DNA of 61,880 nt, filler included, from Tortispora ganteri (GCA_003707115.1; 3 parts of 3 records of this genome joined end to end with filler, not necessarily neighbours in it); one strand, 5' to 3'; positions 4,826-49,789 are shown, counted from the whole stretch's first letter. Notes: generated by a model not told the origin, from the sequence alone. Numbers and translations are program-made.

Positions 4826-5583
<758 letters not shown>

Positions 5584-19678: not shown

Positions 19679-20443
19679 TTAAAAACCTGCCCATTCAATC
19701 GAAAAAACATTCATCGCATCTTCTGTCTCGTCGTAGCCTCCTAAGACCCACACTTTTTTAACTACAGTACCAAGACGGCCTCCAGATACAATATCCAGCA
19801 GATCAATTGGCTCGTCTACTCCTATCTCGTTGACAATCAAATGGCTGTGGAAACGCAATGAGTCTCCCGGATACGCTAAATACCTGCCTCCAAACCTTAA
19901 ACCAGGCGTAATGTAGTAGTTGCGATCTTGTAAATATGCATACAGCTTCTGAATATTTAGTGAAATATTGTCAAATACTGAATCATCTGCATGGATTTTA
20001 TGCAATCCAGGAGTCTCAAGCAGTGTCGTAGTCGGTACAGGCTGCTTGTCGAAGGACTGTCCCACCTGATCAGGATTGAGCTCTCGGCCATGAAGAGCAG
20101 CATTAGCGACAGCTCGACGAACATACAATTCTTTCCTGCTGCACTGCATGTCTTCTGTTTTAGATTCAAACGCCTTTAAAATTTTCGTCTTCAGTTCGTA
20201 ATTTCGATTTAGCTGCTGATGAGATTTTTTCGCACTCACTATATACGCGATCTCGCGGTCAACTAGGTACTTCGCCTGCTCTGGCATCAGCTGCAACGGC
20301 AGTCCTAGAAAAACAGACTGCTGCGGAAATGCAGGTAGCGTTCCCGTTAGCGTTCCAAGAATTTTATGGTTCTCTCTAAGATACTTTAAGTCGTCTACAT
20401 TAAAAATGAAAAAATTGGAGCCTATCGCCTGAATAGGTATCAT
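19679..20443 (-). CDS. SEN34: tRNA-splicing endonuclease subunit Sen34
   Basis: LGLPLQLMPE, PGLRFGGRYLAYPGDSLRFHSH, GRLGTVVKK, SIEWAGF. Confidence 0.93.
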   Translation of the reverse strand: MIPIQAIGSNFFIFNVDDLKYLRENHKILGTLTGTLPAFPQQSVFLGLPLQLMPEQAKYLVDREIAYIVSAKKSHQQLNRNYELKTKILKAFESKTEDMQCSRKELYVRRAVANAALHGRELNPDQVGQSFDKQPVPTTTLLETPGLHKIHADDSVFDNISLNIQKLYAYLQDRNYYITPGLRFGGRYLAYPGDSLRFHSHLIVNEIGVDEPIDLLDIVSGGRLGTVVKKVWVLGGYDETEDAMNVFSIEWAGF

Positions 20444-20449
20444 AGTAAC

Positions 20450-20621
20450 CTAGAAAATACCCGTTAGAGTTGCTCGTGTTTTACACGTGAACTGTATAAG
20501 GCTTTGTTCCTATCATAGGATCACAATCATCATTATATATCAGTGGATTGACAGATTGTGAAATTTTTATGATTATAATCATACAGGAATGTCCCTTCAG
20601 TTCCAGAAAATAGTAGCTTAC
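20450..20621 (-). other. 5'-leader intron 2 of SEN34 (172 nt), snoRNA host
   Basis: GTAAGC at 20621, branch CTCTAAC 20469-20463, TAG ending at 20450, 6 nt before the SEN34 ATG. Confidence 0.75.
20507..20589 (-). ncRNA. box C/D snoRNA, guide for 18S GGAUUGACAGAUUG (snoR14/SNORD110-like site)
   Basis: C ATGATTA 20582-76, 14-nt guide 20558-45, D' CTGA 20543-40, C' ATGATGA 20533-27, D ATGA 20516-13, terminal stem TTCCTG/TAGGAA. Confidence 0.85.
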
Positions 20622-20785
20622 CTAAAAATGAACGTTAGTTTTCACTATTGCAAAAAAGAATGGCAAAACAAAAGGACTAGGTCAGTGCTTCTTAGAGGTT
20701 TATATTTCAAAATCATTCTAGATCATAGATTGTTCACAAACCATCATTCCGAGTCCAAATTGCTGTTACAAGAAAATCTGCTTAC
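20622..20785 (-). other. 5'-leader intron 1 of SEN34 (164 nt), snoRNA host
   Basis: AAAAG|GTAAGC at 20785, branch AACTAAC 20640-34, TTTTTAG ending at 20622. Confidence 0.75.
20674..20756 (-). ncRNA. dual-guide box C/D snoRNA: 25S Um2921-equivalent (snR52-like) and 18S CUUCUUAGAGG site (U61-like)
   Basis: stem GGACT/AGTCC; C ATGATGG 20747-41; guide GTGAACAATC 20737-28 with D' ATGA; C' ATGATTT; guide CCTCTAAGAAGC 20698-87 with D CTGA 20685-82. Confidence 0.88.
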
Positions 20786-21122
20786 CTTTTCGCGCTAGTT
20801 ATTAGTGAGAAAAAATTTCTTGGAAGGTGATGGGGAAAAAAAGATGTGAGGGGAGGAAATTGTTTGGGAGGAAGATGCGATGCTGCAGTCTAAGATGACA
20901 AAAGGCAAAAATGCAAGGCAATAAGGCACCAAAACAACAGCGCGCTGTAATGCGCTAAAATAACACTCTCTACACCTTGACTCATAGATGACAGTGTCGG
21001 CTCAAATTAACAATGTTTTAGAAGAGAGTAGAGGCATGAAGTAAGGAAGTGGAGCTGCGGCAGAAGTCGAGTGTGTATGTGATTCCGCAGAAGAAAGACG
21101 CTGATCGGTCAGAGCACTATCT

Positions 21123-22091
21123 CTAGAGGAAATAATCCGGTGTGCGACGAGATACTGAAGGCTCGCCAGCGCGTGGAGAAGGATCAAATTGTAGGAAAGT
21201 GTATTTGAGATCTTCATCAATTTCCATGATAGCTGCCTGGTTGCCACATCTGTAACAGTAATTAGGTGCTGAAAATATAGTAACGACCTGGTTGTCCTGA
21301 GACCATGAATATCCTTCCATGACCAGTTGATGAGCTCGAGCGACCAATGATAGATTGTTATTATGATTGAACGCTTCTGAGATATCTTGCCCAAAAGTGT
21401 AGCCCGCGCCTCTGGGAGAAATACCCCAACCGGATCGCTCGTCGGGGTCAGACCACAATAAATCGCACATCGCGCCTTCGTGTGGTACTTCCTGGACTCT
21501 ATCCAGGTCTCTGACATTATCTAGAGTATCTATAGACGGGCTCAAACCGCCGTGCAAGCAGAATATCTGAGACTCAATGAGAGCGGTGAGGGGAAGGTAA
21601 TCGAATAGATCGGTAAAGTACTTCCAAACACTAGCATTGCCGTATTTGCGTAAACATTCGTCATAAAATCCGTATACTTGTGTAATTTGGCGGGACTCGT
21701 GGTTGCCCCTGAGGATGGTTAGTCTGTTCGGATATCGAATTTTCAGCGCCACTAGTAAAGTGACAGTCTCTACCGAGTAGTAGCCTCTGTCGACATAATC
21801 ACCCATGAATAGATAGTTAGTATCGGGATTAGGTCCTCCAATACGGAAAAGTTCCATTAAATCGTGGAATTGACCATGAATGTCACCACATACTGTTACA
21901 GGACAGCTAACGGGTTGCACGTTGCTCTCTTGCTCCAAAATTTCTTGAGCTTTGTTGCACAAACGCAACACGTCCGCTTCACTCAAGGGCTTGCATTGGT
22001 ACAATTGTTCAATCCAGCTATCGACGTCGCTTAACCTAATATCTTGCGCCTCCGCTGACATGGGCGGAGCGTCACTCATTGGTACGTCCAT
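21123..22091 (-). CDS. PPH21: protein phosphatase 2A catalytic subunit (PPH21/PPH22 ortholog)
   Basis: GDIHG, GDYVDRG, RGNHE, C-terminal RRTPDYFL; first ATG 22091. Confidence 0.95.
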
Positions 22092-23144: not shown

Positions 23145-23244
23145 NNNNNNNNNNNNNNNNNNNNNNNNNNNNNNNNNNNNNNNNNNNNTTAATTAATTAA
23201 NNNNNNNNNNNNNNNNNNNNNNNNNNNNNNNNNNNNNNNNNNNN
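23145..23244. other. artificial contig linker / assembly gap
   Basis: N44-TTAATTAATTAA-N44; the 12-mer has stops in all six frames. Confidence 0.97.
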
Positions 23245-23379
23245 ATGCTGGTCGGTTGTCTGTGGCATCATTCGTGGCCATCACTGTCGTTAGGGGGAGG
23301 AAAATACACAGAAAAAGGAGGGGGGGGGGGGGTTAAAAGCTTAAACGGTTTTTTATTACACCCCTATACACCGACGCCA

Positions 23380-26300
23380 ATGAAGGAACGTAGATGGGTC
23401 TATGTAACGGATGAACTTATAGATGACAAGAAAGATGGGTTTAATCAATTAACAAACTTAATAGATCAATTAATAGAATCAAATGATCAGTTGGAGATCA
23501 TATCAATCCTTTTTGAATGTGTTACGAGCTTGATTTTGGAGAGGATTGATGTAAAGACTATTGCTGATTTCTTTATTAATAATATAAATAAGAAATACGG
23601 ATCAACAACATTCGAGACCGATTTAATTGATGTAATTAGTTTTTTTGAAACTAATGAATCAATTATTATGCTTCTTAAAGCAGTTAAACTCGATCAGGAC
23701 CTACTCATAAAGTCTCTCAGTTTCGATACTTTAAAGGAATATAACCCCGCGATCGCTTCTCAGATCGTCAAAATAAACACAAACTTGAAATTTCGTCAGA
23801 AACGGTTTAACCTTTTACGTGAAGAGTCAGAAGGATACGCTAAATTCGCTACAACTATTCTCGATACCGCCGACAACGTTCGTACTGTCGGCACTGACAT
23901 GTACGACATCAAAGACGTATACAACAAAATACGTATCCATATAGGCTACTTCGATCTCGATCCTGTAAGGTGTTTAGACATCATTCTTGATATGTTCCTC
24001 TCTAATCTCGCACAACACACTTCATATTTCGTGCAGCTCCTCAAGGTGTCTGACTGGTGGCCTAAGACACCTTACACTTCTAGTTCGTTCGATGATCTTA
24101 CTCGTCCGCCCTCTGACGACTCTGCAACACCGACCAAAGTGCTCTTGTTTCTCTGCGACCGCTCCTTGAAACGCTCCCCATCGCCTCCCGTAACGGTCTT
24201 CTTGGCGTTGCTGGTTAAAATCGGGTTTGTATCTTTCTACACTGCCTGGAACTTCATCTGCCCAGACGACACAGTGCTCCAGCAGAAACTCCTCTTAGAG
24301 TACCAGGAAACGCTCGAAGACCGCCGAAAACAGTCATCAACATTTTCCGCACTCGCAATGGCTGCACCTCTCGCAGACGAAGATAATGAGAACAACAACG
24401 ACAAACAACAGAAAGGCAGCTTAGCCACATCCATTGACGAAAGTAAGGATCAAAACTCTTCCGCTGAAAACACCCAAGATACTGTCGATATTTCTGTTTC
24501 TAAAGTCAAAGAATTCTGTGCTGCTCTCCTGTCAGTTGGGGCATACTGGGAATCCATGTATATACTGTCAAAATTTCAAAACTTGCCCTACGTCTCCTCA
24601 TCAGTGTCACTGAACATAGCAAGAATGTCTAACGCTCTCCTGGAACCTCTTTTGACAGATTCATTTGTGCTCGACCTTAAACCTGCCCACAAACCAGATA
24701 CCAAACTCATATCGGCACCGCGCTTAACAATAGGCGACAGCCCGGTGGCATTCAGCAACGACGGAGGGTTCTTTTATTCTGACTGGAAACACGGTATTCC
24801 ACAAATAAGGTCTCTAGACGAATTCAACAAATTTTACACGCCTTTTCTCAAACTTGCAGGTATCTCTCTCGGCTGCTCTCCCATTGCGTTGTCGAAACTG
24901 TGTCGCTGCATAGCCAAGTTTATCGAAAACGAGCAAGACGCAAAAGACGACATGTTCAGATATATTCGCACGTATATTGCAATTCCTTATTGTGCTGCAG
25001 AAGGTAGTTTTCAACTGGCTGAAGAATTCTACAAATGCTTGTCGTTTTACTCCTTTGAACAGCGGTTCTCTTTCTACGGAGAATGGATGAATTCTATTGC
25101 CAAAAACAACGAAAATGTCCAAATTATTCATGATAAAGCCGTCAAAGATACCAAATCTTTGTTGAAACGACTCTCAACCACAAACATGACAGAAATGAGT
25201 CGCAAACTGGCAGTAGTATCCTATTCAAACCCCGTCTCTGTCTTCAATGTTATTGTCTCACAGGTAGAGAGCTATGATAACTTGGCTGATCTGATCGTAC
25301 AAACTTCAGAGTCTTTTAGTAACATGGATTTTGATGTTTTGACGTTTGTGATCTTGTCAAACCTCTCTTCGGGCCGAAATAAAATGCAAGGAGATGGAAT
25401 GCGACAACGTAAATGGCTGCAGTCTCTTGCATCTTTTTATGGCAAGCTCATAAAAAACTCTTCAGCTCTTGACCCATTACCTGTACTACTCTACATCCTC
25501 AAGCAGCTAGTTAACAATGACACTGGAGAACTGTTAATCATGCAAGAACTCATAGAGAACACTACTAGCGTCTCAACGAACAGAGACTACAATGACGCTC
25601 AGTTTAATGCATTGTCAGGCGACATATTCTTAAGAATGGTCTCTTTATACGCTGGGGCCAGCTCAGCTACAATCAATAGAATACTTTCAGCCCTAGAGTT
25701 CGACAATATCGCTGTACAGCTTACTATCCAACTGTGTCGTCTGACTGACTCGGTCATATTCTCTGACAGCCAATCAACTGTCTTCACAAAAATTCAGTCG
25801 ACAAGGCACGATGATATACAGGCGACATTGTGTCAACTGCTGGAGGTCTTGGAACTCCGTGCAGGCATTAAGCAGGAGAGAATCGAGTTCCCGGATTTGC
25901 AAAGCCTCTTGAACGATTATGGTCTCTCATTTATGACCGCATTAGTTGCTGCCCGGGCCAAGTATAAAAGTGACTGGCTAGCTGAAGAACTCAGCTTGCA
26001 TAAGCCTGTGAGAAAGAGAGGTCGAGGGTCTATAAAATCAACAACGTCTTCTTTGGGTTCTACAGCAGTGGCTGGTTTAGCACCTCTGTTATTTCCCGAA
26101 GCCGAGTTTGAATATTTTGGTACACTTCCACTCATGGGTTTCTGGTTACTCAAGTCCTCCGATATTGAAATACCCGATGCTTGTTATGAAGAAGCTGTGC
26201 TGAAATTAAATAAGCAAATGGAAGTATTGAAATCGCAGTATGATTCAGGAAATGCTTCTTTAGAAGAAATCGAGGAACTAGGACGGAAACAAGCAAATGT

Positions 26301-27498
26301 CGTGAAGGAGAAGCAAGATGCAGTACATAACACGGAATCTTGCCGTGCAAAATTGGAAGCTTTAAAGGACGACTTTTTTAAACAGGCGCCCAAGGGCGTG
26401 TCATCCGTTATCTTTCGAAGACATCAAGTCAAAATCTTTATCGCTCATCACATTTTCCGCCGGGCTAGCTTTTCTATGGCGGATGGCATCTACTGCGCTA
26501 AATTTGCACGAGTGTTAGCTGAGATTGGCGTGACTAACTTTTCACTGCTGCAGTATTTTGATGAAGTATTTGCCCAAAATTCACTTCTCTGGATGATACG
26601 CTCCAGCACGATCGACGAGGCAGATGCTTTTGGAGTTTTCCTCAAATACACATTGGACGAGATAGTGAGATTGGTGAATATTGATGAAGAAAATTTCGAG
26701 GAAGAAGCTAGTGTTAAATTGAATATTTTATGGAACAGCGAAGATGAAACCGACCGACTAAAGCGTTCAGATTTCTTGAAGTTGGTGTATCGATGGAATG
26801 TGAATCTGACAAATGCTTTCAGCGATGCGTTTAAAAGCTATTCGTACATCAATATTCGCAATGGCATAAGCATTTTGAGACGGATTTCAGGAATGTTTCC
26901 CGTAATTACTTGGCACGGAGACCTAATACTGGAAAGTCTCAAGGGATTATCCGAGAATGAGACTCGTGAAGATCTCAAACTTGCAGCATCGGCTCTACAG
27001 AGCCTGATAGGAAGCGGAAAGAGCAAATGGAAGACTTCAGTAGAGTTCCAAAACTCCAAAGATCCGCTCGCGCCCGAGAACGACGAAATCCGGCCCATGG
27101 AGGTCGACAAGTCTGCTGAGGACATTGAAGAAGAGGTAGACAAGTCTAAAGATGAACTTGTGGCATACACGGTGAATGTTGGCAACCGAACTCGGCGGCC
27201 TGTGACGAGAAGAGGTTACGATGATGTCATTGGTACGCTGAATTATGGAGATGATGATTTCAGCGTACCCAAAGAGGAGCCCAAGGAGGAGTCCAAGGAG
27301 GAGCCCAAGGAGGAGCCCAAGGAGGAGTCCAAGGAGGAGCCCAAGGAGGAGTCCAAGGAGGAGCCCATGGAAGAACAAGAGGAGAGCTCCAAGGAGGAGC
27401 CAGAAGACGAGGCTAACGAGGATAGTGCCAATAAGCGCAAGCGCAATGATACAGTAACGAGTGAGCTTTCTACTAAACGACGAAAGAGTGAGAGATAA
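23380..27498 (+). CDS. THO2: THO complex subunit 2
   Basis: RQKRFNLLREESEGYAK, IGYFDLDPVRCLDIILD, ALAMAAPL, QVESYDNL, WLQSLASF, REDLKLAA; probable ATG 23380. Confidence 0.92.
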   Translation: MKERRWVYVTDELIDDKKDGFNQLTNLIDQLIESNDQLEIISILFECVTSLILERIDVKTIADFFINNINKKYGSTTFETDLIDVISFFETNESIIMLLKAVKLDQDLLIKSLSFDTLKEYNPAIASQIVKINTNLKFRQKRFNLLREESEGYAKFATTILDTADNVRTVGTDMYDIKDVYNKIRIHIGYFDLDPVRCLDIILDMFLSNLAQHTSYFVQLLKVSDWWPKTPYTSSSFDDLTRPPSDDSATPTKVLLFLCDRSLKRSPSPPVTVFLALLVKIGFVSFYTAWNFICPDDTVLQQKLLLEYQETLEDRRKQSSTFSALAMAAPLADEDNENNNDKQQKGSLATSIDESKDQNSSAENTQDTVDISVSKVKEFCAALLSVGAYWESMYILSKFQNLPYVSSSVSLNIARMSNALLEPLLTDSFVLDLKPAHKPDTKLISAPRLTIGDSPVAFSNDGGFFYSDWKHGIPQIRSLDEFNKFYTPFLKLAGISLGCSPIALSKLCRCIAKFIENEQDAKDDMFRYIRTYIAIPYCAAEGSFQLAEEFYKCLSFYSFEQRFSFYGEWMNSIAKNNENVQIIHDKAVKDTKSLLKRLSTTNMTEMSRKLAVVSYSNPVSVFNVIVSQVESYDNLADLIVQTSESFSNMDFDVLTFVILSNLSSGRNKMQGDGMRQRKWLQSLASFYGKLIKNSSALDPLPVLLYILKQLVNNDTGELLIMQELIENTTSVSTNRDYNDAQFNALSGDIFLRMVSLYAGASSATINRILSALEFDNIAVQLTIQLCRLTDSVIFSDSQSTVFTKIQSTRHDDIQATLCQLLEVLELRAGIKQERIEFPDLQSLLNDYGLSFMTALVAARAKYKSDWLAEELSLHKPVRKRGRGSIKSTTSSLGSTAVAGLAPLLFPEAEFEYFGTLPLMGFWLLKSSDIEIPDACYEEAVLKLNKQMEVLKSQYDSGNASLEEIEELGRKQANVVKEKQDAVHNTESCRAKLEALKDDFFKQAPKGVSSVIFRRHQVKIFIAHHIFRRASFSMADGIYCAKFARVLAEIGVTNFSLLQYFDEVFAQNSLLWMIRSSTIDEADAFGVFLKYTLDEIVRLVNIDEENFEEEASVKLNILWNSEDETDRLKRSDFLKLVYRWNVNLTNAFSDAFKSYSYINIRNGISILRRISGMFPVITWHGDLILESLKGLSENETREDLKLAASALQSLIGSGKSKWKTSVEFQNSKDPLAPENDEIRPMEVDKSAEDIEEEVDKSKDELVAYTVNVGNRTRRPVTRRGYDDVIGTLNYGDDDFSVPKEEPKEESKEEPKEEPKEESKEEPKEESKEEPMEEQEESSKEEPEDEANEDSANKRKRNDTVTSELSTKRRKSER
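27274..27369 (+). repeat. 12-bp coding minisatellite GAGGAG(C/T)CCAAG x8 (EEPK/EESK)
   Basis: eight tandem units in the THO2 C-terminal tail (last one ends ATG). Confidence 0.95.
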
Positions 27499-32840: not shown

Positions 32841-32934
32841 GAGAATTTGGCCGAGTGGTTAAGGCGTCAGGTTTAGGCTACGCTTAAGAACCCTGATATC
32901 TTCGGATGCGCGAGTTCGAATCTCGTGATTCTCA
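32841..32934 (+). tRNA. tRNA-Leu(UAG) with 13-nt intron (32878-32890)
   Basis: acceptor GAGAATT/GATTCTC, A box TGGCCGAGTGG, anticodon stem TCAGG/CCTGA with TAG 32874-76, long variable arm, B box GTTCGAATC, downstream poly-T. Confidence 0.95.
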
Positions 32935-33096: not shown

Positions 33097-33420
33097 TTAC
33101 ACAGGATCGCGTAAGTTATTCGTGGATTCAAGATGAAATTGGATATTGCGCATGTAACTAAGCCATATACGCGAAGTGAGCTCAATATCGAGATTTTGTC
33201 TGTTAATAGTCTGTTTGTTAGTATGTAGAGCATGTCAAGATCGTAGTATAAAGGGTACTTACCTCTATCATTCTGTTAAGTTCTGTTAGTGACTCATTTA
33301 ATTTGTCCTAGAAGTTAGTAATTGGTTGTATTTAAATATAGTATCTGTATTTGTACATACAATATTTGAAGCAATGCGGACAAGAATTGCATTTTGAACA
33401 GTTTCATGAGGGTTCTCCAT
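33097..33420 (-). CDS. DAD4: DASH complex subunit Dad4, 72 aa; exons 33420-33361, 33307-33263, 33210-33097
   Basis: introns GTATGT..TACTAAC..TAG (53 nt) and GTAAGT..TACTAAC..CAG (52 nt); spliced MENPHETVQNAILVRIASNIDKLNESLTELNRMIETINRQNLDIELTSRIWLSYMRNIQFHLESTNNLRDPV. Confidence 0.95.
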
Positions 33421-33448
33421 TCTGTCTTTCGATCGAAAGCTAAGTGCG

Positions 33449-34030
33449 ATGGACGCAGAAGAGATTAAACAGTACCGTGACCAATACGACGAAATTGTCA
33501 AGCAATTAGAAAATGACAATAAAAATGAAGCTTTATTAGAATTAAAAAAAGAACTTGAAGAATTGTTGGCACTGACTGGTGGTGAATCTTCTGCACCTAT
33601 AGCAGCCAAAAAGCTAACAAGTGTATATAATGCTGGCGAATTTGTGCTTGCCTTATGGAAAGATGGCAATTACTACAAATCAGAGATTATTTCGCAGACA
33701 GGATCTAGCGAAAATCCTATTTATACGATCAAATACCTTGACTATGATGAAATCGACACTGTATCTGTGAATGACTTGCGGCGTATTGATATAGCTAAAG
33801 AGACCGATTCTAAGCAAATACCAGCAAACGAGCAAAAATTAAACTCGCGTCAGGTAAAGAAACAGAAGGAAGTGAAACGACTAGAAGAAAGCAAAAACAA
33901 ATGGAAATCGTTTGCATCAAAGAACCGGATATCTAAGCCGCCTTCTATAAGGAAACCCAACTTATCTTCTGTCACGACTGTGCGGCGATCAAAACACATT
34001 CATGAAAAACTTGAAGATGAAGATGACTAA
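33449..34030 (+). CDS. SPF30: Tudor-domain splicing factor SPF30/SMNDC1-like
   Basis: N-terminal YxxQ..L..D..N.ELL.LK.ELEELL, Tudor VLALWKDGNYY...YTIKYLDY, KNKWKSFA. Confidence 0.8.
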   Translation: MDAEEIKQYRDQYDEIVKQLENDNKNEALLELKKELEELLALTGGESSAPIAAKKLTSVYNAGEFVLALWKDGNYYKSEIISQTGSSENPIYTIKYLDYDEIDTVSVNDLRRIDIAKETDSKQIPANEQKLNSRQVKKQKEVKRLEESKNKWKSFASKNRISKPPSIRKPNLSSVTTVRRSKHIHEKLEDEDD

Positions 34031-39743: not shown

Positions 39744-39830
39744 AAGAGACAGTGATGAAAAAAATTACTCACAGACCTGTACTGAACATTATATGTGGAT
39801 AAAGCAATATTGCCTTTTTCTGAGTCTCTT
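39744..39830 (+). ncRNA. SNR56: box C/D snoRNA snR56/SNORD25 homolog (18S Gm1428 equivalent)
   Basis: 7-bp terminal stem AAGAGAC/GTCTCTT, C GTGATGA 39752-58, guide TCACAGACCTGT 39769-80 complementary to 18S ACAGGUCUGUGA, D' CTGA 39782-85, D CTGA 39820-23. Confidence 0.92.
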
Positions 39831-45512: not shown

Positions 45513-45612
45513 NNNNNNNNNNNNNNNNNNNNNNNNNNNNNNNNNNNNNNNNNNNNTTAATTAATTAANNNNNNNNNNNNNNNNNNNNNNNNNNNNNNNN
45601 NNNNNNNNNNNN
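45513..45612. other. artificial contig linker / assembly gap
   Basis: N44-TTAATTAATTAA-N44. Confidence 0.97.
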
Positions 45613-45782
45613 ATGCTCACCAGATGTTACTTGTTACCATAGCAATTTACACTTTATTTCCTTTTTGCTATACTCCCACACCAGTGAATGTAAACACACA
45701 TTTGAACCACTCCTCTATCTTTATATTTCGCATTGCTCCGACTGCAACTACAGAATCAATAGCTACTTGCATTTTGATCCAA

Positions 45783-47933
45783 ATGACAACAATATTACAT
45801 CTAGATTCTTATGAATCAGATGACTCAATATCATCCTCGGACGGATCATTTATGCCGCCAGTCCTGAGCTCTTACGCTCAAGCTTTACTCGCCGACGGCG
45901 CAACTACAACAAGCCATAATGATCCGAACCAAACACTTGTTAATAATGATTTCACTCGCACCAATGTCTTAACAACTGCCTTTTCAAATTTACGAGATGA
46001 TCATAAGACCCCGGCGGCTTCGGACCACGGCCCTAACTCTGGCTCTTTATCGAAATCTCAGTATCGGCCCACTACTGTACGGATAAGGCGATTCGGCTCT
46101 TTACTTGGACCCCCTCAGCGCGCTTTACCGGATGACTCTAATAGCCCTGATTCAGATGCTTTTATGGGCGAAAGTCCTCCTCTAAAAAACAAAAATGGTG
46201 AATCCCATTCACTAACTACTCAAAAAATTGACCTCGCCAATCATGAGTCCCAACAACTCGAACGCCTAATGCCTCATGATTCTATACCCTCTTCTCGTTC
46301 TTTTAAAAGCGTTTCTTCTAGTATATTAGAATGCGAAACAGATCTGCCTGCAGTAGTAGGGCCTACTGCTGCTTCTTGTGCTACTCTTACAATGAAGGAC
46401 TTCCATGACACACTCAAAAACTCACAGACCGCTCCTAAAGGAAATGAATTCAAATCACGAATTCAACTCACAAAAAAAACCAATTCTCCGAATTATGATT
46501 CCAAAGATCATCAATTACAGCAATCATCAAGTCAAAACTCCGACGTTCATGTTGGTAATTCCAAAGAGAACTCATTTCTCGTTCCCCTACCTCCAATCAA
46601 TCAGCCTTTAAGCACTTCCGAGACCACACAATCTAGAGCTGAATATAGGGCTGGTGCTCCGTCTGCTTTTGATACTTTAACTTTTAGAGCACACGACCCT
46701 GATCAGATTCGAAATAAAAACCCTCATCGCTCCACATCTCCACCACAACGATCTCGAAGTCATCTAGGAAACTTGGATCCCTCTGCTCTCAACGTTTTAC
46801 CTGAAAAGAAAACTATATATAATGAGAAGCCACGAAATGGGTTTAATGCATTAAATACCTTGCGATCACATGCATCTTCCACTGCTTCATTGGTACCGGA
46901 TGATGTACACCAAGATCAATATCAGCATGCTGCCCCACTTTCAGCGCCCATACATCATGAAATAACTGAGCAGAAAAGACATGGTTTAATAACCGTGAAT
47001 AAGAACGTTTACCACCGCCTGGACACCATGGGCAAGGGCGGTTCAGGTAGAGTATATCGGGTACAAGGTCCGAACGGAAAGTTGTATGCATTGAAAAAGG
47101 TTTCTTTCAAAGGACAGAGTCCCGAAGCTATAGAAGCATTTAAAGGAGAAGTCCGCCTTCTCCGAGAATTAAGGACTGTCAGCAGAGTGGTCAAACTAGT
47201 TGATTTTGAAATTTCTAGAAGTGCCATCAACGTTGTGATGGAGTGCGGTGATACAGATATGAACACTTTACTTGCTTCCAGGCTAGATAAGCCTCTGAAC
47301 GTTAATTTTGTTCGATACTACGCACATGAGATGTTAGAATGTGTATCGGCGATACATGAAGCAGGAATAGTGCACTCTGACCTGAAACCAGCGAATTTTG
47401 TCCTCGTTAAAGGAGTTTTGAAGCTAATTGATTTTGGCATTGCAGATATTGTTCCAGATGACACAGTAAATTTGTCAAGAGACTCTCGACTGGGCACACC
47501 TAATTATATGGCACCAGAAATGTTATCTGCTGCTACTCCCATTGATGGATCAGCGGCACGTTTCAAACATGGACGGCCAGCCGATGTTTGGAGTTGCGGT
47601 TGTATAATATATCAAATGATATATGGACAGCCACCATATGGAGGGTACCACAGAGATCAGAGGATGAATGCTATATTAAACCCGGATATCAAAGTGGCTT
47701 ACGACGCGAGGACGAGAACTAATAGCGTCGTACCTATAGATGCGATAAATGTGGTTCGCGCGTGTCTATGTCGAGACCCAAAAGAAAGAGCTACCGCAAA
47801 TCAATTACTGACGCTTAAATTCTTTAGGCCTCAAGATACAGTCGCACAGATTCAAGAACTGTTAAGGAATATCGATTCCAATACTTCAGCAATTCAGATT
47901 GCACAGTGTTTAAGACGAATGGTGGAGCAGTAA
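45783..47933 (+). CDS. MPS1: spindle-checkpoint kinase Mps1/Mph1
   Basis: GKGGSGRVYRV, HSDLKPANFVLVKGVLKLIDFGIA, GTPNYMAPE, N-terminal LGPPQR; probable ATG 45783. Confidence 0.9.
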   Translation: MTTILHLDSYESDDSISSSDGSFMPPVLSSYAQALLADGATTTSHNDPNQTLVNNDFTRTNVLTTAFSNLRDDHKTPAASDHGPNSGSLSKSQYRPTTVRIRRFGSLLGPPQRALPDDSNSPDSDAFMGESPPLKNKNGESHSLTTQKIDLANHESQQLERLMPHDSIPSSRSFKSVSSSILECETDLPAVVGPTAASCATLTMKDFHDTLKNSQTAPKGNEFKSRIQLTKKTNSPNYDSKDHQLQQSSSQNSDVHVGNSKENSFLVPLPPINQPLSTSETTQSRAEYRAGAPSAFDTLTFRAHDPDQIRNKNPHRSTSPPQRSRSHLGNLDPSALNVLPEKKTIYNEKPRNGFNALNTLRSHASSTASLVPDDVHQDQYQHAAPLSAPIHHEITEQKRHGLITVNKNVYHRLDTMGKGGSGRVYRVQGPNGKLYALKKVSFKGQSPEAIEAFKGEVRLLRELRTVSRVVKLVDFEISRSAINVVMECGDTDMNTLLASRLDKPLNVNFVRYYAHEMLECVSAIHEAGIVHSDLKPANFVLVKGVLKLIDFGIADIVPDDTVNLSRDSRLGTPNYMAPEMLSAATPIDGSAARFKHGRPADVWSCGCIIYQMIYGQPPYGGYHRDQRMNAILNPDIKVAYDARTRTNSVVPIDAINVVRACLCRDPKERATANQLLTLKFFRPQDTVAQIQELLRNIDSNTSAIQIAQCLRRMVEQ

Positions 47934-48470: not shown

Positions 48471-49789
48471 ATGAAAAAGCATCTTGTCGTATTTCACCAT
48501 GGGTAAGTCAAAAAGAGGTGCGATCTGTTTATGCAGCACTATTCGAAAAGCGTTCATTCTAACTTCCGGCACATAGTTTATGGGGTGTACCTAACCATGT
48601 TAAAGCCTTGGAGGAAACGCTGATAAAAGCATTTGGATCAACCGGCCAACTCGATACTCTAGTGATATCGGTCAATGCTGGCATTTACATGTACGACGGC
48701 ATTGAACTCTGCGGAACCCGTTGTTACCAGGAAATCGCAGCTTACCTTGACTATAACGAATACGACCGCATATCTCTTGTTAGCTATTCTCTTGGAGGTC
48801 TTGTCGCCAGGTATGCTATTGGTTTGATGTATGAAAATCACTTATTTGAAAATATAAAAGCTATGAACTATGTCTCATTCGCGAGTCCGCACCTTGGAGT
48901 CTCGGAACATGCCGAAATTGCCGCATTCACCTGGCTTCTAAAAGCGGGTAAAGCTACGCTAGGAAAAGCCGGTCAAGATCTATTCAATGTATCAGACATA
49001 ATATTGAATATGACTGAACCAGACAGTATATATATGAAGGGTTTAGCAAAATTCAAAAAAAGAATTGTTTACGCCAACGTTATAGGCGATATTCTTGTAC
49101 CTTTTTGGACTGCCGCTTTTGAGGACAAAGTGATATTTGGTAGCGACGTTCATAAAGCGCGAATAAAATACATCGAAGGTGCTAGCCCTGTATTAACTAG
49201 TTTATCTTTCCCTGTATACAAACTTCGTTCCAAGCCTCAGAAATTCAAGGATGATATCATAGGAGACAAAATGTATAAAGCTCTTACCTTAGCTCTCTTC
49301 TCAGGAGCATATGTCTTTATCACGCTTGCATCAGCTTTTTTAATACCTTTTAGTTTAGTTTGCAGCTGGTTATCTTACAGAAGGATAGCAGAATATCATC
49401 GTTCTAAGGCCTTAAAACACAATGCAGCCTCAATTGCTTCTACTGCTATAACTCCTGTCAAGCATCGACGTACAAGCTTTAACGATTTTGTCTCTCGCGA
49501 ACAGCTTGACGCAGTGGAAATTCTATCATCTATGGAACAGCCTTATCAAAGCGAACCTGATGAACGTGGTACAGACTGTCAAGGTGATATAATGACTCCT
49601 GCACCAGTAGAACTCACCGACAAACAACGAAGAATGAAAAAAAATTTGGATACATTAAAATGGGAAAAATATGCTACTTTTTTCTGGAAAATAAAAAGGA
49701 CACATCTGGCGATAATTAACAGGAACAATGTTTCTAATCCTGCTAACAAGCCTGTCATGGATCACTGGATTTCTATTTTCCAATTATGA
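48471..49789 (+). CDS. DUF676 putative serine esterase/lipase; exons 48471-48502 and 48577-49789
   Basis: 74-nt intron 48503-48576 (GTAAGT..TTCTAAC..TAG) restores HLVVFHHGLWG; YDGIELCG, SYSLGGLVARYAIG, FASPHLG, YAN. Confidence 0.88.

What the first reader, a model, noticed from the sequence alone, without database searches (positions are those of the whole stretch)
20444..20790. Two abutting snoRNA-bearing introns with a zero-length exon (recursive splice site) in the SEN34 5' leader
Seen on the minus strand: AAAAG|GTAAGC (20785) ... snoRNA ... AACTAAC-GTTCATTTTTAG|GTAAGC (20622/20621) ... snoRNA ... CTCTAAC-GGGTATTTTCTAG (20450)|GTTACT-ATG of SEN34. The first acceptor directly abuts the second donor, so no exon lies between them. 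Removing intron 1 regenerates an identical AAG|GTAAGC donor. Branch-to-AG distances (13-14 nt) match the lipase intron in this window. The upstream exon has an in-frame TAG, so it is non-coding. Established: AG|GT recursive sites occur in long animal introns, and compaction or loss of exons between snoRNA introns is reported in the Candida lineage. Inference: one transcript yields two separate snoRNA lariats plus the mRNA of a tRNA-splicing endonuclease subunit, coupling rRNA methylation to tRNA splicing.
Basis: partly seen in the sequence, partly recalled or inferred. Interest (0 to 1): 0.85.

Follow-up and report, generated by a model that had tools for sequence, protein, structure and literature searches.

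The report
Back-to-back snoRNA introns before SEN34
Just upstream of a yeast tRNA-splicing gene lie two small rRNA-guide RNA genes, each inside its own intron, and the two introns touch with no exon between them; the layout looks real, but it is a further example of something already described in other fungi.

Summary
On the minus strand there is AAG|GTAAGC (20785), a U61/SNORD61-type C/D snoRNA, AACTAAC-13 nt-TAG|GTAAGC (20622/20621), a SNORD110/snoR14-type C/D snoRNA, then CTCTAAC-14 nt-TAG (20450), 6 nt before the SEN34 ATG.

The window comes from a Tortispora-like basal budding yeast: its SEN34 is 91% identical to that of T. caseinolytica.

The best reading is two separately spliced snoRNA introns (164 and 172 nt) in a non-coding SEN34 leader. 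Removing intron 1 regenerates the donor. No RNA data could be obtained, so the splicing is inferred.

This kind of arrangement is already published:
- Juxtaposed snoRNA introns without intervening exons are reported for Candida, Debaryomyces, Yarrowia, Pezizomycotina and archiascomycetes.
- A zero-length exon in a snoRNA host was shown experimentally in S. pombe.

Two fungal-like metagenome contigs also show U61-type introns abutting other snoRNA introns.

What is new here is the protein-coding host, the lineage and the snoRNA pair. That pair also turns out to be linked in 21 of 127 metagenome loci.

The proposed coupling of rRNA methylation to tRNA splicing has no support. Verdict: new member of a known kind, modest interest.

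The parts
20786..20900 (-). Putative non-coding exon 1 and pyrimidine-rich promoter-proximal region. The 5' end (transcription start) is unknown. It ends ...GCGCGAAAAG at 20786.
   Evidence: sequence; no ATG between 20984 and 20748; the spliced leader has no ATG before the SEN34 start and has an in-frame TAG. The start site is not mapped.
20622..20785 (-). Intron 1 (164 nt): donor GTAAGC 20785-20780, branch site AACTAAC 20640-20634 (branch A 20635), acceptor TAG 20624-20622.
   Evidence: The signals match those of four verified coding introns in the window, except for C instead of T at donor position +6.
20674..20756 (-). snoRNA 1, box C/D, U61/SNORD61 type (83 nt). C box AUGAUGG at 20747-20741. 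D guide CCUCUAAGAAG at 20698-20688. D box CUGA at 20685-20682. Terminal stem GGACU.GG/CC.AGUCC.
   Evidence: SNORD61, 40.7 bits, E 1.6e-4; all 11 guide positions match the family consensus. (boxes and stem in the predicted fold). Searches give the family's target: 18S Um1442 in human, Um1381 in Arabidopsis.
20621..20622 (-). Zero-length exon: acceptor G (20622) directly followed by donor G (20621). The context is TTTTTAG|GTAAGC. After intron 1 is removed the junction reads AAG|GTAAGC, identical to donor 1.
   Evidence: the only such motif in the window (expected 0.107 per window).
20450..20621 (-). Intron 2 (172 nt): donor GTAAGC 20621-20616, branch site CTCTAAC 20469-20463 (branch A 20464), acceptor TAG 20452-20450.
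20507..20589 (-). snoRNA 2, box C/D, SNORD110/snoR14 type (83 nt in the preferred model). C box AUGAUUA at 20582-20576. D' guide AAUCUGUCAAUCC at 20557-20545. D' box CUGA at 20543-20540. C' box UGAUGA at 20532-20527. D box AUGA at 20516-20513. Stem UUCCUG/UAGGAA. An alternative 3' end lies at 20492, with D-like CUUA (20500-20497) and stem CUGUAU/AUACAG.
   Evidence: snoR14, 27.3 bits, E 5.5e-3; the guide plus D' box matches the consensus. (boxes and fold). Searches give the relatives N. crassa CD44, S. pombe snR82, Arabidopsis snoR14 and human HBII-55, which target 18S Um1227/Um1232/Um1288 and have no S. cerevisiae counterpart.
19679..20449 (-). Downstream exon: 6 nt of leader (GTTACT, 20449-20444), then the SEN34 ORF (ATG 20443, 254 aa, stop included at 19679).
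   Evidence: ORF. (Pfam PF01974/PF26577 on the relatives; 91% identity to T. caseinolytica). (same start methionine, no gaps).

Best explanation
One RNA polymerase II transcript starts in the pyrimidine-rich region upstream of 20786 and runs into SEN34. Its leader contains two yeast-type spliceosomal introns placed end to end, each carrying one box C/D snoRNA.

Splicing of intron 1 (donor 20785, branch A 20635, acceptor 20622) releases a 164-nt lariat. It also joins ...AAG to GTAAGC..., recreating the same donor. A second reaction (branch A 20464, acceptor 20450) releases a 172-nt lariat. The reverse order would give the same products, because removing intron 2 first leaves acceptor 1 intact.

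By analogy with known intronic snoRNAs, each lariat is debranched and trimmed by exonucleases down to the snoRNP. This would yield a U61-type guide (18S Um at the site equivalent to human U1442) and a SNORD110/snoR14-type guide (equivalent to human U1288).

The fully spliced mRNA has a short leader without any ATG, ending 6 nt before the SEN34 start codon.

Shown: the sequence signals, the snoRNA anatomy, the family assignments and the parallels elsewhere. Inferred: the start site, actual use of all four splice sites, the order of splicing, and snoRNA maturation.
For: 1. Complete, correctly ordered signals, with no competing AG after either branch site.

2. Four coding introns verified by reading frame in this window use GTAAGT or GTATGT, then [A/T]CTAAC, then 6-14 nt, then AG. 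The branch and acceptor signals are therefore of the species' own type.

3. The two introns have the same geometry: 29/32 nt, an 83/83-nt snoRNA, then 52/57 nt to the acceptor. There is one snoRNA per intron, as reported for N. crassa, where 45 of 55 C/D snoRNAs are intronic.

4. Both donors are GTAAGC preceded by AG. By my recollection of U1 pairing, the -2/-1 AG would add two base pairs that offset the C at +6. All four verified coding introns have T at +6.

5. The exon-1 region has no ATG from 20984 to 20748, whereas each intron carries four ATGs. An mRNA starting upstream therefore has to lose both introns for SEN34 to be translated.

6. The spacer between the two snoRNAs has no stable hairpin (z +0.60; 141 of 200 shuffles fold at least as well). 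This argues against RNase III-type polycistronic processing.

7. The abutment motif is unique in the window (expected 0.107).

8. The same architecture is documented with RNA evidence in other fungi. It is also visible next to U61-type snoRNAs in two fungal-like metagenome contigs, L099 and L100.

9. The two guide types are linked on one strand in 21 of 127 loci (expected 0.2; reverse-complement control 0). This supports both being real and belonging to one unit.
Against: - There is no RNA evidence of any kind for this organism (one search listed no run), and no orthologous DNA from a relative could be examined.
- Both snoRNAs fall below Rfam gathering scores.
- snoRNA 2 has a non-canonical D box (AUGA or CUUA) and an ambiguous 3' end.
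- GTAAGC differs at +6 from all four verified coding introns.
- The transcription start is unmapped. A CACGTG motif inside intron 2 (20488-20483) leaves room for an internal SEN34 start.
- Luo et al. could not exclude, for analogous introns, that only the first donor is functional and merely chooses among acceptors.
Confidence: 0.65

Rival explanations
1. Single functional donor with alternative acceptors. Only donor 1 (20785) works, and it pairs either with acceptor 1 or with acceptor 2. Transcripts spliced to acceptor 1 keep intron 2 with its four upstream ATGs and are unproductive for SEN34. Transcripts spliced to acceptor 2 release one 336-nt lariat carrying both snoRNAs.
For: Luo et al. 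state that this alternative fits their EST and RT-PCR data for juxtaposed fungal snoRNA introns. Exon skipping is seen as a minor pattern in Candida clusters.
Against: Donor 2 is hexamer-identical to donor 1 and sits in an equally good AG| context. A 336-nt lariat with two snoRNAs would need an endonuclease cut, yet the spacer has no stable hairpin. This model would also make every snoRNA-1-only transcript a loss for SEN34.
Confidence: 0.12
2. Two overlapping units. The spliced upstream transcript serves only as a snoRNA host, and its exon product is unstable or poorly translated. Most SEN34 mRNA starts at an internal start site within intron 2, downstream of snoRNA 2.
For: Only 63 nt separate snoRNA 2 from the ATG, and they contain a CACGTG E-box-like motif. 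Most fungal snoRNA hosts are non-coding. SEN34 is not next to U61-type snoRNAs in any of 127 other loci.
Against: Acceptor 2 lies 6 nt before the ATG, with A at -3. The spliced leader is free of ATGs and has no competing ORF. An internal promoter would have to overlap the snoRNA genes. A snoRNA in a 5'UTR intron of a protein-coding gene is known in Candida (snR79).
Confidence: 0.15
3. No splicing at all. The splice-like motifs are fortuitous, and the two snoRNAs are cut from an unspliced precursor (S. cerevisiae-style polycistronic processing) or are transcribed independently.
For: snR56 in the same window (39748-39825) looks independently transcribed, with TATAAATA just upstream. The species therefore does use that mode.
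Against: By my rough estimate the joint chance of two donors, two CTAAC branch sites and two pyrimidine-tract TAG acceptors in the right order around two snoRNAs is about 1e-6 or less (base rate). No TATA-like box precedes either snoRNA. The spacer has no RNase III-type hairpin.
Confidence: 0.05

Closest known systems
Juxtaposed ('complex') snoRNA introns without intervening exons in fungal polycistronic snoRNA clusters I-III (Mitrovich et al. 2010 as cited; Luo et al. 2013, PMC3596301; Donovan et al. 2016, PMC5033589)
   Same: One C/D snoRNA per intron. Neighbouring introns are separated by an exon of 0 nt (also 1 nt, or nested). Stepwise 5'-to-3' or 'recursive' splicing is supported by ESTs, RT-PCR or RNA-seq, for example D. 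hansenii snR41/snR70 with exon size zero.
   Different: Those hosts are non-coding and carry the snR72-78, snR57-55-61 and snR41-70-51 clusters. Here the downstream exon is the SEN34 coding exon, the snoRNAs are U61 and SNORD110 types that S. cerevisiae lacks, and the lineage is Trigonopsidaceae. Table S3 of Luo et al. was not seen.
Zero-length exon in the 336-nt intron of S. pombe SPNCRNA.445 ('snoRNA61'), Chen et al. 2018 (bioRxiv 10.1101/226894)
   Same: An acceptor immediately adjacent to a donor inside a snoRNA host intron of a yeast. It was shown by spliceosome profiling and RT-PCR and is conserved in other Schizosaccharomyces species. By coincidence the total length is also 336 nt.
   Different: The host is non-coding and the subphylum is different. 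I could not check whether 'snoRNA61' there is the snR61/U38 family (as the S. pombe column of the N. crassa table suggests) or a U61 type, so homology is not established.
Recursive splicing at ratchet points (zero-nucleotide exons) in long Drosophila and vertebrate introns
   Same: A juxtaposed AG|GT; the donor is regenerated after the first step; the intron is removed piecewise (abstracts listed).
   Different: Those sites subdivide introns of tens of kilobases and carry no payload. Here each segment is about 170 nt and exists to deliver a snoRNA.
snoRNA in a 5'UTR intron of a protein-coding gene (snR79 in four Candida-clade species; Donovan et al. 2016)
   Same: A C/D snoRNA is released from an intron in the leader of an mRNA.
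   Different: That case has a single intron and a single snoRNA, with no abutting second intron.
Plant polycistronic cluster U61-snoR14 ('cluster 49'; PMC5122169)
   Same: The same two snoRNA families, in the same order and adjacent. This is seen here in the plant-like contig L061, with snoU61 at 66.8 bits and snoR14 at 86-98 bits.
   Different: From what the contig shows, the plant genes sit in one non-intronic spacer-separated cluster, with no splice sites between them.

Membership tests
Box C/D snoRNA, SNORD61/U61 clan (Rfam CL00067) | C box (RUGAUGA) near the 5' end and D box (CUGA) near the 3' end, brought together by a terminal stem | tested here: met
   AUGAUGG (one deviation) at 20747-20741 and CUGA at 20685-20682. 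They are flanked by the stem GGACU.GG/CC.AGUCC (8 positions, 1 mismatch), which the minimum-energy fold recovers.
Box C/D snoRNA, SNORD61/U61 clan (Rfam CL00067) | Guide of at least 10 nt ending 2 nt before the D box and identical to the family's 18S guide | tested here: met
   CCUCUAAGAAG matches 11 of 11 consensus positions with the same 2-nt spacing (alignment). The family target is Um1442 in human and Um1381 in Arabidopsis. This organism's own 18S was not available.
Box C/D snoRNA, SNORD61/U61 clan (Rfam CL00067) | Score at or above Rfam's gathering threshold | tested here: not met
   40.7 bits against 43, and absent from the gathering search. Fungal-like L100 also scores below threshold (35.7 bits), so the model may fit fungi poorly.
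Box C/D snoRNA, SNORD110/snoR14 clan (Rfam CL00076) | D' guide UCUGUCAAUCC followed by one nucleotide and a CUGA D' box | tested here: met
   AAUCUGUCAAUCC-A-CUGA at 20557-20540 matches the snoR14 consensus. N. crassa CD44 also uses the D' guide for 18S Um1227.
Box C/D snoRNA, SNORD110/snoR14 clan (Rfam CL00076) | Canonical terminal C and D boxes; score at or above the gathering threshold | tested here: inconclusive
   The C box is AUGAUUA. The D box is AUGA (with stem UUCCUG/UAGGAA) or CUUA (with stem CUGUAU/AUACAG). The score is 27.3 bits against 40.
Yeast-type spliceosomal intron | 5' GUAAGY/GUAUGU, branch YUAAC, 3' YAG shortly after the branch | tested here: met
   Both introns carry all three signals. 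Four coding introns verified by reading frame in this window serve as reference.
Yeast-type spliceosomal intron | Removal from RNA (spliced junctions, lariats) | not testable with these tools
   No RNA run was listed and no genome is held.
Zero-length exon / recursive splice site | Acceptor AG directly followed by donor GU, with its own branch site and pyrimidine tract upstream; the donor is regenerated after the first ligation | tested here: met
   AACUAAC-GUUCAUUUUUAG|GUAAGC. After intron 1 is removed the junction reads AAG|GUAAGC, the same as donor 1.
Zero-length exon / recursive splice site | Splicing intermediate (exon 1 joined at 20621) or two separate lariats observed | not testable with these tools
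   No reads were available.
Fungal exon-less snoRNA intron clusters (Luo 2013 / Mitrovich 2010 type) | Several snoRNA-bearing introns juxtaposed within one non-protein-coding polycistronic host | tested here: not met
   Juxtaposition and one snoRNA per intron are met. The host, however, ends in the SEN34 coding exon, with the acceptor 6 nt before the ATG. It works like these clusters but is not one of clusters I-III.

The most novel reading that the evidence does not exclude
The U61-type and SNORD110-type guides form an ancient linked pair. They occur as one dual-guide snoRNA in some eukaryotes, as neighbours in plant-like and animal-like contigs, and as adjacent introns in one contig. In the Tortispora lineage the pair has been compacted until no exon is left between the two introns, and the whole unit sits in the 5'UTR of an essential gene. 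SEN34 translation would then strictly require two consecutive splicing reactions at one regenerated donor, because eight upstream ATGs remain otherwise. That would make this a compact natural yeast model (336 nt) of obligatory recursive splicing in an mRNA.
Probability: 0.3. Interest if true: 0.5.

Novelty: new member of a known kind. Interest (0 to 1): 0.3.

Why it matters
For annotation, the SEN34 gene model in this yeast, and probably in its relatives, should carry a non-coding first exon, two 5'UTR introns and two snoRNA genes. Both snoRNAs belong to families that S. cerevisiae lacks.

For biology, the case extends exon-less snoRNA intron pairs from non-coding hosts to a protein-coding mRNA, and to the basal budding-yeast family Trigonopsidaceae.

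It also offers a very small substrate for asking a question left open by earlier work: whether the internal donor of such pairs is truly used, and in which order the introns go.

The side observation that U61-type and SNORD110-type guides stay together across distant eukaryotes may interest people who study snoRNA evolution. None of this overturns current understanding.

Tried and rejected
- **RNA evidence.** The look-up of sequencing runs listed no RNA holder for 20300-21100 (none was listed, which is not the same as none existing). Read laying could therefore not be used.

- **Own genome.** None is held.

- **Earlier findings of the scan.** Three look-ups returned nothing.

- **First metagenome pattern.** It required U61 guide, CTAAC, then SNORD110 guide at yeast-like spacing, and gave 0 matches.

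- **Generic intron scan.** A permissive scan across open reading frames gave mostly in-ORF false positives and was dropped. Four introns were verified by eye instead.

- **Recent tandem duplication of one snoRNA intron as the origin of the zero-length exon: rejected for lack of evidence.**
  - snoRNA 1 against snoRNA 2 is no better than shuffles (p 0.47).
  - The 5' flanks without the GTAAGC hexamer give p 0.19.
  - The 3' flanks give p 0.045, but they include the shared branch site, pyrimidine tract and TAG.
  - As a control, snoRNA 2 against the unrelated snR56 gives p 0.02.

- **SEN34 next to other U61-type snoRNAs.** tblastn found 0 hits in 127 loci. Flanks are at most 1.5 kb, and only about 300 nt for 47 of the loci.

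- **RNase III-type hairpin in the inter-snoRNA spacer.** None was found.

- **ARAGORN.** It found no tRNA, although Rfam reports a 94-nt tRNA match at 32841-32934.

- **Mitrovich et al. 2010 (PMC3496775).** Not held. It is known here only through citations.

- **'The fungal snoRNAome' (PMC5824354).** It contains no U61, SNORD61, SNORD110 or snoR14 names, so it could not be used to place these families.

- **Literature on this exact case.** 'SEN34' + 'snoRNA' + 'host gene' found 0 papers. 'Tortispora' + 'snoRNA' found 1 review with nothing relevant.

Full report
**What is in the sequence.**
Read on the minus strand, the 679-nt gap between the stop codon of a PP2A-type phosphatase ORF (21123-22091) and the SEN34 start (20443) contains the following, in order:
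- a pyrimidine-rich stretch ending ...GCGCGAAAAG;
- GTAAGC (donor G at 20785);
- a C/D snoRNA;
- AACTAAC, then GTTCATTTTTAG ending at 20622;
- immediately GTAAGC again (20621-20616);
- a second C/D snoRNA;
- CTCTAAC, then GGGTATTTTCTAG ending at 20450;
- GTTACT, then the ATG.

The two putative introns are 164 and 172 nt, 336 nt together.

**The organism.**
The SEN34 protein (254 aa) is 91% identical, without gaps and from the same first methionine, to the protein of Tortispora caseinolytica. The next-best relatives are at about 40% identity. The window therefore comes from a Tortispora-like yeast (Trigonopsidaceae, an early-branching budding-yeast family). No genome of it, or of a relative, was available. 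No RNA run was listed.

**Are the splice signals of the species' own type?**
Four coding introns in the window could be verified, because removing them restores conserved reading frames:

| Gene | Coordinates | Length | Donor | Branch site | Branch A to G |
|---|---|---|---|---|---|
| DPM1-like | 4871-4914 (+) | 44 nt | GTAAGT | ACTAAC | 6 nt |
| Lipase/DUF676-like | 48503-48576 (+) | 74 nt | GTAAGT | TCTAAC | 14 nt |
| Small DASH-subunit-like, intron 1 | 33360-33308 (-) | 53 nt | GTATGT | TACTAAC | 7 nt |
| Small DASH-subunit-like, intron 2 | 33262-33211 (-) | 52 nt | GTAAGT | TACTAAC | 7 nt |

The two leader introns have the same branch and acceptor signals, at 13 and 14 nt. They are longer by about the size of their snoRNA. 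They differ in having C at donor position +6. Both donors are preceded by AG. From what I recall of U1 pairing, that AG adds two base pairs that would offset the C at +6.

**Are the snoRNAs real?**
A sensitive Rfam search of 20300-21200 gave two matches:
- SNORD61, 40.7 bits, E 1.6e-4 (cut-off 43);
- snoR14, 27.3 bits, E 5.5e-3 (cut-off 40).

Both are below the curated cut-offs. Neither appeared in the whole-window gathering search, which found only snR56 and a tRNA.

The anatomy is nevertheless convincing.
- **snoRNA 1 (20756-20674)** has AUGAUGG and CUGA boxes clasped by an 8-position terminal stem. Its 11-nt guide is identical to the family consensus, at the family's spacing from the D box.
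- **snoRNA 2 (20589-20507)** has a 13-nt D' guide plus a CUGA box identical to the snoR14 consensus, a perfect C' box, a near-canonical C box and a 6-bp terminal stem. Its D box is non-canonical, and an alternative 3' end at 20492 cannot be excluded.

According to published tables:
- U61 guides 18S Um1442 in human and Um1381 in Arabidopsis.
- snoR14/HBII-55 (SNORD110) guides 18S Um1232 and Um1288.
- Neither has an S. cerevisiae counterpart.
- N. crassa CD44 and S. pombe snR82 are the fungal relatives of the second family. CD44 is intronic and also uses its D' guide.

**More than chance?**
The motif CTAAC-N5-25-YAG|GTAWG occurs once in the 61.9-kb window on both strands, and that occurrence is this site. 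Simulated sequences give a mean of 0.107 per window; 31 of 300 contain at least one. Landing on the right strand in the ~117-nt spacer between two snoRNAs has an expectation of roughly 1e-4. Adding an outer donor and an outer branch-plus-acceptor in the right places lowers this by a further two to three orders of magnitude. Both figures are my rough estimates.

**Leader logic.**
- There is no ATG between 20984 and 20748.
- Each intron contains four ATGs.
- After both introns are removed, the leader has no ATG and has an in-frame TAG five codons before the start.
- The ATG has A at -3.

An mRNA that starts upstream of 20786 can therefore express SEN34 only if both introns are removed. The spacer between the snoRNAs has no stable hairpin (z +0.60; 141 of 200 shuffles fold at least as well). 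This speaks against RNase III-type processing of an unspliced precursor.

**Mechanism proposed.**
One transcript is spliced in two reactions. Removing intron 1 joins ...AAG to GTAAGC and recreates donor 1 exactly. The second reaction uses branch A 20464 and acceptor 20450. The reverse order is also chemically possible, because removing intron 2 first leaves acceptor 1 in place. Donovan et al. describe both orders for a Candida cluster. Luo et al. saw only 5'-to-3' order. Each lariat would then be debranched and trimmed to its snoRNP, as established for intronic snoRNAs generally. All of this is inferred from sequence.

**What is already known.**
- Luo et al. [quoted passage not shown] - Donovan et al. 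[quoted passage not shown]
- Chen et al. 2018 (passages) demonstrate a zero-length exon in the S. pombe SPNCRNA.445 snoRNA host intron. That intron is, by coincidence, also 336 nt.

The phenomenon is therefore established in fungi.

A metagenome scan for U61-type snoRNAs returned 127 loci with 145 matches.

Two fungal-like contigs show U61-type introns abutting other snoRNA introns:
- L099 has ...TTAG|GTATGT upstream of its U61-type intron.
- L100 has ...TTAG|GTATGT upstream and ...CTAG|GTAAGC downstream.

The SNORD110-type guide core lies on the same strand as the U61-type snoRNA in 21 of 127 loci. The chance expectation is 0.2, and the reverse-complement control gives 0. The 21 loci break down as follows:
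- 12 loci: inside the same snoRNA, as its D' guide (dual-guide form);
- 5 loci: 87-123 nt downstream. These include plant-like clusters (L061: snoU61 66.8 bits, snoR14 86-98 bits) and one contig with a short exon between two introns (L070);
- 4 loci: about 470 nt upstream (L019: SNORD110 and SNORD61).

A plant U61-snoR14 cluster is already published. This linkage supports the view that the two snoRNAs in the window belong to one ancient unit.

A recent tandem duplication of one intron is not supported. The two snoRNAs and their flanks are no more alike than shuffled controls once shared signals are set aside. SEN34 was not found beside any of the other loci (0 of 127).

**Verdict.**

The remaining probability is shared among three rivals:
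- a single-donor, alternative-acceptor model;
- an internal SEN34 start site, with the upstream transcript acting only as a snoRNA host;
- no splicing at all, which is very unlikely.

The suggested functional coupling between rRNA methylation and tRNA splicing is no more than co-transcription.

This is a new member of a known kind. What is new is the coding host, the lineage and the snoRNA pair. I found nothing in print on this specific case, but supplementary tables of the key papers were not seen.

Noticed in passing
L002, L008, L009, L027, L057, L076, L089, L096, L097, L111, L114, L126 (metagenome loci): A dual-guide C/D snoRNA combines the SNORD110-type guide (before D') and the U61-type guide (before D) in one ~65-75-nt RNA. 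It is seen in 12 of 127 U61-type loci from apparently diverse eukaryotes. This suggests the two guides were once in one snoRNA, or fused repeatedly.
   Followed up: partly
L099 and L100 (metagenome loci, GC 0.44): These fungal-like contigs share a homologous terminal exon. In them the U61-type snoRNA intron directly abuts another snoRNA intron: TTAG|GTATGT upstream in both, and CTAG|GTAAGC downstream as well in L100, giving three introns in a row.
   Followed up: partly
window 39748-39825 (+): An snR56 homologue (61.9 bits, above the gathering score) has TATAAATA about 35 nt upstream and no flanking splice signals. It looks independently transcribed, so the species uses both expression modes for C/D snoRNAs.
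   Followed up: partly
window 33419-33094 (-): A small three-exon gene (translation begins MENPHETVQNAILVRIASNI...) resembles, from memory, a DASH-complex subunit. It has two introns of 53 and 52 nt. It partly overlaps, on the opposite strand, the upstream end of a stop-to-stop frame (33410-34030 +) that looks like a Tudor/SPF30-type gene.
   Followed up: no
window 20488-20483 (-), inside intron 2: A CACGTG (E-box-like) motif lies within a small hairpin (CGUGU-AAA-ACACG) between snoRNA 2 and branch site 2. It could be part of an internal promoter or merely a spacer.
   Followed up: no
window 20584-20579 (-): The C box of snoRNA 2 overlaps a donor-like GTATGA. Donovan et al. noted an odd splice event at a donor-like site inside snR78 in Candida.
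   Followed up: no
window 23145-23188, 23201-23244, 45513-45556, 45569-45612: Four runs of exactly 44 N, in two pairs. Each pair lies just upstream of a long ORF (23245-27498 and 45561-47933).
   Followed up: no
window 32841-32934 (+): Rfam reports a tRNA (47.5 bits) spanning 94 nt, which implies an intron-containing tRNA gene, that is, a substrate of the SEN34 enzyme. ARAGORN with its default settings did not call it.
   Followed up: no
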